A stretch of 64,000 bases of DNA, from NCBI RefSeq assembly GCF_003790525.1, contig NZ_CP033633.1, one strand, 5' to 3'. Numbering within the stretch: the stretch's first letter is position 1; every line of letters starts with the position of its first letter. The notes under the pieces are model-generated. The model did no database searches, had not been told where the DNA came from, and saw only the letters and a program-made list of their open reading frames with translations. Positions 11,553 to 11,960 of the stretch are shown piece after piece. Position numbers and translations under genes: made by a program. The stretch is from Escherichia coli (GTDB lineage: Bacteria; Pseudomonadota; Gammaproteobacteria; Enterobacterales; Enterobacteriaceae).

Positions 11553-11960
11553 TTATCTGAATTTTCGGTGACCTTCAAGTTTTATATCGTTCATTTTATC
11601 CAGAGACTCACGTAATGATTCTATATCCCCGTCCTCAACTTTCTTTTTTGCAATATTGATTTCATGTTGTAGTTTTTTTAACTCTTCCTTATAACTATCT
11701 ACAGAAACTTTATCATTAACATCTATCTTTTCAGGAATAATATTCATAGAAGAATCTACAGCTTTATCCATCATTTCAAGAGCATTTAATAGTGATGATT
11801 TATCATTGGAAGATTGTAGAATACTCATACTTTTGGCAAGAGACTGCATGTTTTTATCCAGGCCAGAAGCCAAAGATACGTTGCTGAGAGATAAAAAAAT
11901 AGCTAGTACAGCACCTGAGAAAAATACCTTTTGTTTTTTCATTAATATATTCCTGTTCAA
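11553..11960 (-). CDS. Cytochrome b562-like periplasmic protein
   Basis: Signal peptide then LDKNMQSL...GHRKFR, resembling E. coli CybC (ADLEDNMETL...HQKYR) with candidate Met and His haem ligands; AT-rich gene. Confidence 0.5.
   Translation of the reverse strand: MNRNILMKKQKVFFSGAVLAIFLSLSNVSLASGLDKNMQSLAKSMSILQSSNDKSSLLNALEMMDKAVDSSMNIIPEKIDVNDKVSVDSYKEELKKLQHEINIAKKKVEDGDIESLRESLDKMNDIKLEGHRKFR

What the first reader, a model, noticed from the sequence alone, without database searches (positions are those of the whole stretch)
11553..11960. Plasmid-borne cytochrome b562-like gene
A signal-peptide-containing 4-helix-bundle-sized protein resembles E. coli cytochrome b562 in its N-terminal (LDKNMQSL vs LEDNMETL) and C-terminal (GHRKFR vs HQKYR) regions, including the Met and His haem-ligand positions. 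The gene is AT-rich and sits between IS1 and a relaxase remnant. A periplasmic haem protein on a conjugative plasmid is unusual cargo.
Basis: partly seen in the sequence, partly recalled or inferred. Interest (0 to 1): 0.4.

Follow-up and report, generated by a model that had tools for sequence, protein, structure and literature searches.

The report
Plasmid-borne orphan cytochrome b562 paralogue
The gene is a real, intact, exported cytochrome b562-family haem protein, already labelled as such in public plasmid records; its closest relatives all sit directly behind a periplasmic catalase-peroxidase gene, but this copy travels alone on a small IS-bounded fragment, so it is an ordinary find with one modestly interesting twist.

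Summary
Window 11553-11942 (minus strand) encodes a 129-aa protein. The true start is the ATG at 11942, not the TTG at 11960.

- **Family match:** it matches Pfam Cytochrom_B562 end to end (57 bits against a cut-off of 30).
- **Sequence features:** it has a Sec-type signal peptide and keeps the Met7 and His102 haem ligands, which are invariant in 42 family members.
- **Fold:** the model is a four-helix bundle whose best structural matches are cytochrome b562 and BRIL.
- **Not the chromosomal orthologue:** it scores 68 bits against an NCBIfam equivalog cut-off of 130 and is 18% identical to CybC.

It is not new. The identical protein (WP_045146805.1) is annotated "cytochrome b562" on 84 PLSDB plasmids and in 138 of 5,426 complete E. 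coli genomes. "Unusual cargo" is overstated: 581 PLSDB plasmids carry a relative, mostly the pO157 katP-linked gene L7018.

What I add concerns its relatives. Its nearest clades (about 50% and 28% identical) each lie 28-53 bp downstream of a signal-peptide-bearing catalase-peroxidase, in four independent pairs. This mirrors the verified katY-cybC-cybB operon of Yersinia. This copy has no peroxidase nearby. It has its own conserved promoter region and 3' hairpin, and dN/dS is 0.24.

The likely role is a soluble periplasmic haem electron carrier, ancestrally serving periplasmic peroxidases. That role is inferred, not shown.

The parts
11553..11942 (-). CDS of the b562-family protein (129 aa plus stop; identical to WP_045146805.1)
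   Evidence: ORF list. Same extent as the RefSeq CDS on the identical segment. Pfam PF07361 at 57.1 bits against a cut-off of 30.
11868..11942 (-). Predicted Sec signal peptide (residues 1-25, MKKQKVFFSGAVLAIFLSLSNVSLA, cleavage before SG)
   Evidence: Read from the sequence: a basic n-region, a hydrophobic core, and Ser/Ala at positions -3/-1. It aligns with the CybC signal peptide. After cleavage Met would be mature residue 7, as in E. coli b562. No signal-peptide predictor was available.
11847..11849 (-). Codon of Met32, which aligns with the axial ligand Met7 of E. coli b562
   Evidence: Alignments. The column is invariant in 42 of 42 family members.
11568..11570 (-). Codon of His125, which aligns with the axial ligand His102
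   Evidence: Alignments. The column is invariant in 42 of 42 family members.
11951..11954 (-). Shine-Dalgarno AGGA, 8 nt upstream of the ATG at 11942
   Evidence: Sequence. Conserved in the 77%-identical allele 2.
11943..12039 (-). About 100-bp AT-rich upstream region conserved between the two alleles. It contains a TATAAT at 11966-11971 and is the probable own promoter.
   Evidence: Alignment with allele 2. Homology ends at 12039. The consensus scan gave no more promoter-like sites than shuffles, so the promoter is inferred, not shown.
11494..11523 (-). 3' hairpin (ACGGCAATA...TATTGCCGT) 30 nt after the stop codon; a likely terminator or mRNA-stabilising stem
   Evidence: Folds at -16.2 kcal/mol, z = -3.8. 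The equivalent stem in allele 2 folds at -16.7 kcal/mol, z = -4.4. Conserved in the alignment.
11378..12274 (.). 897-bp fragment carrying the gene, shared at 99% identity with unrelated contexts
   Evidence: Same fragment in pAPEC-O2-211A-ColV (L002) and in the chromosome of strain 702/18 (L003). The flanks differ in each.
11378..11392 (.). Last 15 bp of the end of an IS3-family element (IS2-like from my recollection of the IS2 terminal repeat), cut off by the IS1 insertion
   Evidence: In L002 and L003 the same sequence continues into a full IS3-family element, which matches window 53538-54868 at 96%.
10610..11377 (-). IS1 copy bounding the fragment on the gene's 3' side
   Evidence: 768-bp IS1, one of three copies in the window. 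Annotated IS1A transposase.
12327..13913 (-). Relaxase remnant bounding the other side (context, not part of the gene)
   Evidence: Only the TraI_middle domain is found. It aligns to residues 407-898 of the intact relaxase at 67% identity.

Best explanation
The gene encodes a small soluble periplasmic cytochrome of the b562 family. A 129-aa precursor is exported by Sec and cleaved after residue 25. The mature protein of about 104 aa folds into a four-helix bundle that binds one non-covalent haem b between Met7 (Met32 of the precursor) and His102 (His125).

It is a fast-evolving paralogue, not the chromosomal CybC. It belongs to a mobile clade whose other members are each co-located, 28-53 bp downstream, with a signal-peptide-bearing KatG-type catalase-peroxidase (KatP and three relatives). 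This parallels the katY-cybC-cybB operon of Yersinia.

The most likely job of that clade is one-electron transfer in the periplasm, feeding the peroxidase cycle of the exported catalase-peroxidase. The ultimate electron source would be the quinol pool through a membrane b561. The copy in this window has lost, or never had, the linked peroxidase. It is a monocistronic unit with its own upstream region and 3' hairpin, carried on an 897-bp fragment that IS elements have moved among ColV/ColBM-type and IncK/I-type plasmids and chromosomes. It would therefore act in trans on whatever periplasmic partner the host provides.

**Shown:** family membership, ligand conservation, predicted fold, gene linkage in relatives, purifying selection.

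**Inferred:** export, haem binding, electron-donor role, partner.
For: **Family and fold**
- Pfam PF07361 match at E = 3e-15, full length, above the cut-off.
- The best NCBIfam hit is cytochrome b562.
- The only PDB sequence hits are b562.
- AF2 model: pLDDT 79.5 overall and 88-95 in the helices, with four helices.
- The Foldseek matches listed are BRIL fusions, other helical-bundle entries, and b562 itself (4er9, TM 0.81).

**Conserved residues**
- Met32, Pro70 and His125 are invariant in 42 family members.
- WIN (the window protein) carries the majority family residue at 19 of the 20 columns printed, the exception being Arg for Lys at position 126.

**Evolutionary position**
- An exhaustive HMM search shows an isolated clade. 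The nearest full-length relative scores E = 8e-30, and canonical b562 proteins score about 1e-8.
- An NJ tree puts WIN as sister to the KatP-linked b562s at about 50% identity.

**Linkage to peroxidases in relatives**
- Four independent peroxidase-b562 pairs were found.
- The peroxidases are 74-88% identical, but their b562 partners are only 32-53% identical. The linkage has therefore outlasted much sequence divergence.
- All four peroxidases have Sec-type leaders and match PF00141.

**Literature**
- katY-cybC-cybB is an RT-PCR-verified operon in Y. pestis (PMC2231364).
- katG, cybB and cybC are co-induced 6.7-7.5 log2 by H2O2 in Y. pseudotuberculosis (bioRxiv 10.64898/2026.03.04.709318).
- pO157 L7018, a 'putative cytochrome b562 family protein', is detected as protein and is 6.3-fold higher in piglet gut (PMC3686733).

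**Signs of function in this copy**
- dN/dS is 0.24 against the 77%-identical allele, at dS 0.68.
- The upstream 100 bp and the 3' hairpin are conserved between the two alleles.
Against: - No peroxidase gene exists anywhere in the 64-kb window (tblastn). None is present in the other contexts of this clade either (L002, L003, L009). The proposed partner is therefore hypothetical for this copy.
- No biochemical data exist for any member of this clade, and I found no paper mentioning it.
- Consensus scans gave no convincing sigma-70 promoter and no Fur, OxyR, Fnr, ArcA or Crp site.
- Among near-identical copies, changes are mostly non-synonymous (5 N to 1 S in one comparison, 2 N to 1 S in another). 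The counts are too small to interpret.
- Frameshifted or truncated variants exist (P0031, P0039, P0042). This is compatible with relaxed selection in some lineages.
- The electron-donor role of b562 for KatG-type enzymes has not been demonstrated in any organism, to my knowledge.
Confidence: 0.75

Rival explanations
1. It is a periplasmic haem handler rather than an electron carrier. It would bind free haem b to buffer or store it, or pass it to Sec-exported apo-haemoproteins such as KatP, which must acquire haem in the periplasm. On iron-acquisition plasmids it could assist haem or iron economy.
For: - All four linked peroxidases have Sec-type, not twin-arginine, leaders. From general knowledge of Sec export, they would therefore fold and receive haem outside the cytoplasm.
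- In this window the gene lies 3.4 kb from the eitABCD-type iron ABC transporter.
- Many carrier plasmids are ColV/ColBM virulence plasmids.
- Y. pestis CybC rises under iron starvation while KatY falls, and that study's table lists Fur against cybC (PMC2835676). This fits a haem or iron role better than strict co-function with KatY.
Against: - The eit neighbourhood is not conserved. In L002 and L003 the fragment sits in unrelated contexts, and the nearby ABC fragment in L002 does not match the window's eit genes.
- No Fur box stands out upstream: 13 of 19 matches, reached by 17% of shuffles.
- From general knowledge, b562 binds haem tightly, which suits a carrier of electrons better than a donor of haem.
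Confidence: 0.15
2. It is a functionless passenger: a leftover gene on an IS-shuffled fragment that persists by hitch-hiking on successful plasmids and is slowly decaying.
For: - The gene sits on an 897-bp fragment bounded by IS1, an IS3-family end and a recombination junction, and the same fragment appears in unrelated contexts.
- It has no conserved neighbours.
- Frameshifted variants exist near a 7-nt homopolymer in the leader-coding region, along with truncated forms.
- Non-synonymous changes are in excess among near-identical copies, at small counts.
- No native host genome was found among the 100,044 species representatives. The scan used only two peptide patterns.
Against: - dN/dS is 0.24 over dS 0.68 between the two alleles.
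- Every family-invariant residue is retained.
- The RBS, upstream region and 3' hairpin are conserved across alleles.
- All 60 places listed (30 of the 84 PLSDB records, 30 of the 145 E. coli records) carry a CDS annotated cytochrome b562.
- The related pO157 protein is expressed.
Confidence: 0.08
3. It is a b562-fold protein that no longer binds haem and has taken on another periplasmic role, for example protein binding or stress protection.
For: - It is very divergent from CybC: 18% identity in the mature part.
- It falls below the NCBIfam equivalog cut-off.
- Its composition is very Lys, Asp, Ser and Asn rich.
Against: - Both axial ligands are kept, and WIN carries the majority family residue at 19 of the 20 columns printed in the family alignment, the exception being Arg for Lys at position 126.
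- The ligands are also invariant within the clade, except in one frameshifted variant.
Confidence: 0.02

Closest known systems
E. coli soluble cytochrome b562 (CybC; PDB 256B and others; Pfam PF07361)
   Same: - Same family by profile.
- Same length class: mature about 104 aa against 106 aa.
- The signal peptide and the Met7 and His102 ligand positions are in register.
- Same predicted four-helix bundle.
   Different: - Only 18% identical in the mature region.
- Scores 68 bits against the 130-bit equivalog cut-off.
- Encoded on mobile DNA at 27-30% GC.
- At positions I recall as lining the haem pocket of CybC, it follows the family consensus rather than the E. coli residues: Y for F61, L for F65, G for Y101, F for Y105.
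pO157 L7018 and its relatives: b562-family genes immediately downstream of katP (periplasmic catalase-peroxidase)
   Same: - The nearest clade, about 50% identical and the same 129-aa length.
- Also plasmid- or island-borne in E. coli, AT-rich, with the same ligands.
   Different: - Those genes sit 38-46 bp after katP, behind a GC-rich intercistronic hairpin.
- The window gene has no peroxidase nearby and has its own upstream region.
Yersinia katY-cybC-cybB operon
   Same: It couples a b562 with a KatG-type catalase-peroxidase (described as periplasmic, from my memory). It gives the only transcript-level evidence for such coupling: co-transcription and strong H2O2 co-induction.
   Different: - It is chromosomal.
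- It includes a membrane b561 (cybB) that the E. coli katP loci and this window lack.
- I did not retrieve the Yersinia sequences, so their position in the tree is untested.
Salmonella F-like plasmid b562 (P0127 cluster)
   Same: Another solitary b562-family gene on conjugative plasmids.
   Different: - It belongs to the CybC-like branch, not the KatP-linked branch.
- It sits in the leading region between the SLT transglycosylase gene and hok/psiAB.

Membership tests
Cytochrome b562 family (Pfam PF07361) | Full-length profile match above the curated gathering score | tested here: met
   57.1 bits against a cut-off of 30, E = 3e-15, profile positions 2-102 of 102.
Cytochrome b562 family (Pfam PF07361) | Axial haem ligands Met7 and His102 (mature numbering) | tested here: met
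   Met32 and His125 align to them. Both columns are invariant in 42 of 42 family members. With cleavage after residue 25, Met is mature residue 7.
Cytochrome b562 family (Pfam PF07361) | Four-helix bundle of about 105 residues | tested here: met
   The AF2 model has four helices, pTM 0.70, and helix pLDDT of 88-95. Foldseek matches b562 (4er9, 2bc5 and others, TM about 0.80) and BRIL fusions.
Cytochrome b562 family (Pfam PF07361) | N-terminal signal peptide and periplasmic location | tested here: inconclusive
   The sequence has a basic n-region, a hydrophobic core and an SLA|SG site, and it aligns with the CybC leader. No signal-peptide predictor or experiment was available.
Cytochrome b562 family (Pfam PF07361) | Binds one non-covalent haem b (reduced alpha band near 562 nm) | not testable with these tools
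   Requires expression and spectroscopy.
CybC orthologue (NCBIfam NF011632, equivalog) | Score at or above the equivalog cut-off | tested here: not met
   67.9 bits against a cut-off of 130. 18% identity to CybC in the mature region. It is a paralogue, not the orthologue.
Catalase-peroxidase-linked b562 (KatP/L7018, KatY/CybC type) | Belongs to the sequence clade of peroxidase-linked b562 proteins | tested here: met
   The NJ tree places the WIN clade as sister to L7018-like and P0105 at 49-55% identity, inside the group that also holds P0065 and P0063. The HMM search shows P0056 (the P0105 cluster) as the only close full-length relative.
Catalase-peroxidase-linked b562 (KatP/L7018, KatY/CybC type) | Located immediately downstream, on the same strand, of a signal-peptide-bearing PF00141 catalase-peroxidase | tested here: not met
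   There is no KatP-like sequence in the whole window, nor in L002, L003 or L009. The region upstream of the gene shows no similarity to the katP 3' end.

The most novel reading that the evidence does not exclude
The b562 family, whose physiological role has (to my knowledge) never been settled despite decades of use as a folding model and as BRIL, may be the dedicated periplasmic redox partner of exported KatG-type catalase-peroxidases. The path would run quinol to b561 to b562 to KatP/KatY to H2O2. On this reading, the orphan plasmid copy is a portable, in-trans booster of periplasmic peroxide defence in avian and extraintestinal pathogenic E. coli.
Probability: 0.25. Interest if true: 0.6.

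Novelty: already known. Interest (0 to 1): 0.25.

Why it matters
In itself it matters little. The gene is a correctly annotated member of a well-known protein family, and similar genes are common on E. coli virulence plasmids.

The useful by-product is the repeated, long-lived pairing of b562 paralogues with exported catalase-peroxidases, seen in four divergent pairs here plus the Yersinia katY-cybC-cybB operon. This points to a testable physiological role for cytochrome b562: electron donor, or haem supplier, to periplasmic peroxidases. If that holds, this solitary copy would be a small oxidative-stress accessory on about 2.5% of complete E. coli genomes, many of the listed ones from poultry.

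Tried and rejected
1. **katP remnant upstream.** I looked for a katP 3' remnant upstream of the gene. DNA alignment to the katP-b562 junction and tblastn of three peroxidases against 11300-12400 and the whole window found none.
2. **Regulatory sites.** The consensus promoter scan was no better than shuffles. Best matches to Fur, OxyR, Fnr, ArcA and Crp consensus sites upstream of both alleles were not distinguishable from shuffles. The one exception was a weak Fur-like match in allele 2 only. I rejected these as evidence.
3. **Rfam.** A search over 11300-12400 gave only a sub-threshold HgcC hit at 17 bits against a cut-off of 50, which I take as chance.
4. **Link to eitABCD.** I rejected an ancestral link. 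The neighbourhood is not shared by L002 or L003.
5. **IS1-EEP-IS1 as a transposed composite.** The flanking 9-mers do not match, so there is no target-site duplication.
6. **Whole-family scan of species genomes.** The narrower clade scan returned only 6 loci. Three of them are KatP plus b562 on tiny contigs labelled as Lachnospiraceae MAGs, which are probably mis-binned E. coli DNA. No native donor species was found.
7. **Literature.** I found nothing on this clade or on a b562-KatP interaction. One search (katP OR L7018) was swamped by K-ATP channel papers. The Garcia et al. 1999 KatY paper is not held.

Full report
**1. The observation**

The window has an ORF at 11553..11960 on the minus strand. 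The convincing start is the ATG at 11942, for three reasons:
- An AGGA sits 8 nt upstream of it.
- The product is 129 aa, the length of all relatives.
- RefSeq annotates exactly this 390-nt CDS on the identical segment.

The region is strongly AT-rich, with 27-30% GC over 11500-12100 against about 52% in the flanks. IS1 occupies 10610-11377. The ORF at 12327-13913 is a relaxase remnant. It has only the TraI_middle domain and aligns at 67% identity to residues 407-898 of the intact 900-aa relaxase at 41949-44651.

**2. Family membership**

Sequence evidence:
- The protein matches Pfam Cytochrom_B562 over the whole profile, at 57.1 bits against a gathering score of 30 and E = 3e-15.
- Its best NCBIfam hit is the cytochrome b562 equivalog, but at 67.9 bits against a cut-off of 130. 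It is a family member but not the CybC orthologue.
- Against PDB sequences, the hits down to E ≈ 1.5 are all cytochrome b562 chains or engineered fusions containing it. LDKNMQSL aligns to LEDNMETL, and GHRKFR aligns to YHQKYR.

In an alignment of 42 family members drawn from an exhaustive HMM search, the columns of Met32, Pro70 and His125 are invariant. The window protein carries the majority family residue at 19 of the 20 columns printed; the exception is Arg for Lys at position 126.

The leader (MKKQKVFFSGAVLAIFLSLSNVSLA|SG) has the shape of a Sec signal peptide. Cleavage there makes Met mature residue 7, as in E. coli b562. This is read from the sequence, since no predictor was available.

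An AlphaFold2 model gives four helices, pTM 0.70 and pLDDT of 88-95 in the helices. The Foldseek matches listed in the PDB are BRIL fusion proteins, other helical-bundle entries, and cytochrome b562 itself (4er9, 2bc5 and others, TM about 0.8). Haem binding itself cannot be tested here.

**3. It is already in the databases and is not rare on plasmids**

- The 701 bp around the gene occur at 95% identity or more in 84 PLSDB plasmids (80 E. coli, 4 Klebsiella, all typed conjugative).
- They also occur in 138 of 5,426 complete E. coli genomes, at 128 plasmid and 20 chromosomal places.
- Every listed record annotates 'cytochrome b562'.
- The window is collinear with pE16-3 (NZ_CP119729) at 99.97% identity over 1-20055. 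It then lacks a 2.76-kb segment that holds cmi, cma and cbi in pE16-3.
- A tblastn of the protein against all PLSDB plasmids finds relatives on 581 of 72,556 records. About 86 belong to this clade. About 495 are a form that is about 45% identical, on plasmids of about 75-95 kb from O157, O26 and similar strains.
- Salmonella F-like plasmids carry yet another, CybC-like b562 between the SLT gene and hok/psiAB.

So 'unusual cargo' is overstated.

**4. Where the gene sits in the family**

A profile of the clade was searched against 1.84 billion representative proteins. It gave one close full-length relative (P0056, E = 8e-30), then a gap down to ordinary b562-sized proteins at about 1e-8.

P0056 and its common cluster-mate P0105 lie 38 bp downstream of a 737-aa PF00141 peroxidase, in an E. 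coli island seen in 555 collection blocks. I found three further pairs:
- KatP plus the L7018-like protein on plasmids, with a 46-bp gap.
- A 730-aa peroxidase plus P0065, with a 53-bp gap.
- A Citrobacter 738-aa peroxidase plus P0118, with a 28-bp gap.

All four peroxidases match PF00141 and start with Sec-type leaders. They are 74-88% identical to each other, while their b562 partners are only 32-53% identical. The linkage has therefore persisted through much divergence. Three of the four intergenic gaps hold a strong GC-rich hairpin of different sequence, folding at -17.5 to -19.2 kcal/mol.

In an NJ tree, the window clade is sister to the KatP and 737-aa partners at about 50% identity. That group joins P0065 and P0063. 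CybC is 18% identical.

The literature gives the same pairing in Yersinia:
- katY-cybC-cybB is an RT-PCR-verified operon (PMC2231364).
- katG, cybB and cybC are co-induced 6.7-7.5 log2 by H2O2 (bioRxiv 10.64898/2026.03.04.709318).
- CybC is listed as periplasmic and rises under iron starvation (PMC2835676).

**5. This copy is an orphan**

No KatP-like sequence occurs in the window, nor next to the gene in pAPEC-O2-211A-ColV, an E. coli chromosome, or the allele-2 contig. The DNA upstream of the gene is not a katP remnant.

The gene rides on an 897-bp fragment (11378-12274) that is 99% identical in three unrelated contexts. Its left end is the last 15 bp of an IS3-family (IS2-like) terminus, cut by IS1. 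In the other two contexts the full IS element is present.

A second allele, 77% identical in protein, shares only 11491-12039 with the window. That span is about 100 bp upstream, the CDS, and a 3' hairpin. The hairpin folds well in both alleles, with z = -3.8 and -4.4. dN/dS between the alleles is 0.24 at dS 0.68.

This pattern fits a self-contained, selected, monocistronic gene.

Signs of decay exist in some copies. There are frameshifted variants around a 7-nt homopolymer in the leader-coding region and truncated forms. Non-synonymous changes are in excess among near-identical copies, at very small counts. Some of these may be sequencing errors.

**6. Mechanism**

I commit to the following. 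This is a Sec-exported, haem-b-binding, Met/His-ligated four-helix-bundle cytochrome that acts as a soluble periplasmic electron carrier. By descent from peroxidase-linked genes, its ancestral task was to supply electrons to an exported catalase-peroxidase during peroxide reduction. The solitary copy would work in trans.

The first sentence rests on tested features, apart from haem binding and export. The rest is inference from gene linkage and co-regulation in relatives.

The main rival is a haem-handling role: buffering haem or loading it into Sec-exported apo-peroxidases. This is favoured by the Sec leaders of the peroxidases and by the iron-starvation response of Yersinia CybC. It is not supported by any conserved iron-uptake neighbourhood or Fur site here.

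A pure passenger reading is weakened by the dN/dS value and the conserved expression signals.

**7. Verdict**

The gene is already annotated and belongs to a known family, so novelty is low. The modest interest lies in the repeated b562/periplasmic-peroxidase pairing, which makes the long-unknown function of cytochrome b562 experimentally approachable. That its function is unsettled is my own knowledge, not a tool result.

Noticed in passing
window 8358-11377: Two inverted IS1 copies (8358-9125 and 10610-11377) bracket a 1.5-kb AT-rich segment. That segment encodes a signal-peptide-bearing endonuclease/exonuclease/phosphatase-family protein (9580-10443, minus strand; PF03372, 62 bits). It looks like a composite transposon, but the outer 9-mers do not match, so there is no target-site duplication.
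   Followed up: partly
window 12327-13913 and 41949-44651: The plasmid carries an intact 900-aa MOBP-type relaxase. It also carries a second, 67%-identical C-terminal fragment (residues 407-898) that lacks the nuclease domain. This is a relic of recombination with a related plasmid.
   Followed up: yes
window 20055/20056 versus L001 22657-25416: The window is 99.97% identical to pE16-3 up to 20055. It then lacks a 2.76-kb segment lying directly next to the third IS1 copy (20056-20823). In pE16-3 that segment carries colicin M (cma), its immunity gene (cmi) and colicin B immunity (cbi). This looks like an IS1-adjacent deletion.
   Followed up: partly
L011 7276-7321; L005 5963-6000; L012 4948-5000: The short gaps between the catalase-peroxidase genes and their b562 partners contain strong GC-rich hairpins, folding at -17.5 to -19.2 kcal/mol. 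The sequences differ but the shape is the same. This suggests a conserved intercistronic attenuator or mRNA-processing stem that sets the peroxidase to b562 ratio.
   Followed up: partly
L021-L023 5001-5384: Salmonella enterica F-like plasmids carry a different, CybC-like b562 gene (P0127 cluster, listed in 123 collection blocks). It lies in the leading region between the SLT lytic transglycosylase gene and hok/psiA/psiB/ssb. This is an odd place for a periplasmic cytochrome.
   Followed up: no
L026-L028: Three contigs of 3.4-3.9 kb, labelled as Lachnospiraceae metagenome-assembled genomes, encode KatP at 98-99.9% identity to the E. coli plasmid enzyme, plus the b562 partner. These are almost certainly mis-binned E. 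coli plasmid DNA.
   Followed up: partly
window 11893-11899: A run of seven A (T7 on the coding strand) lies inside the signal-peptide coding region. Database variants P0031 and P0039 are frameshifted from about this point, and P0036 (98 aa, 41 members) has the length expected for a start at Met32. The cause could be homopolymer sequencing error, decay or slippage.
   Followed up: no
window 4064-8104: An eitABCD-type cluster is present: periplasmic binding protein, permease, ATPase and MFS transporter. It is a putative iron-uptake locus known from APEC plasmids whose substrate is still unproven.
   Followed up: no
window 47000-48523: An ORF with reverse-transcriptase and group II intron maturase domains (PF00078, PF08388) indicates a group II intron inserted in the plasmid backbone.
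   Followed up: no
window 59594-61867: A 757-aa ORF on the minus strand has no Pfam match at E <= 1e-5. It lies in what looks like the transfer region.
   Followed up: no
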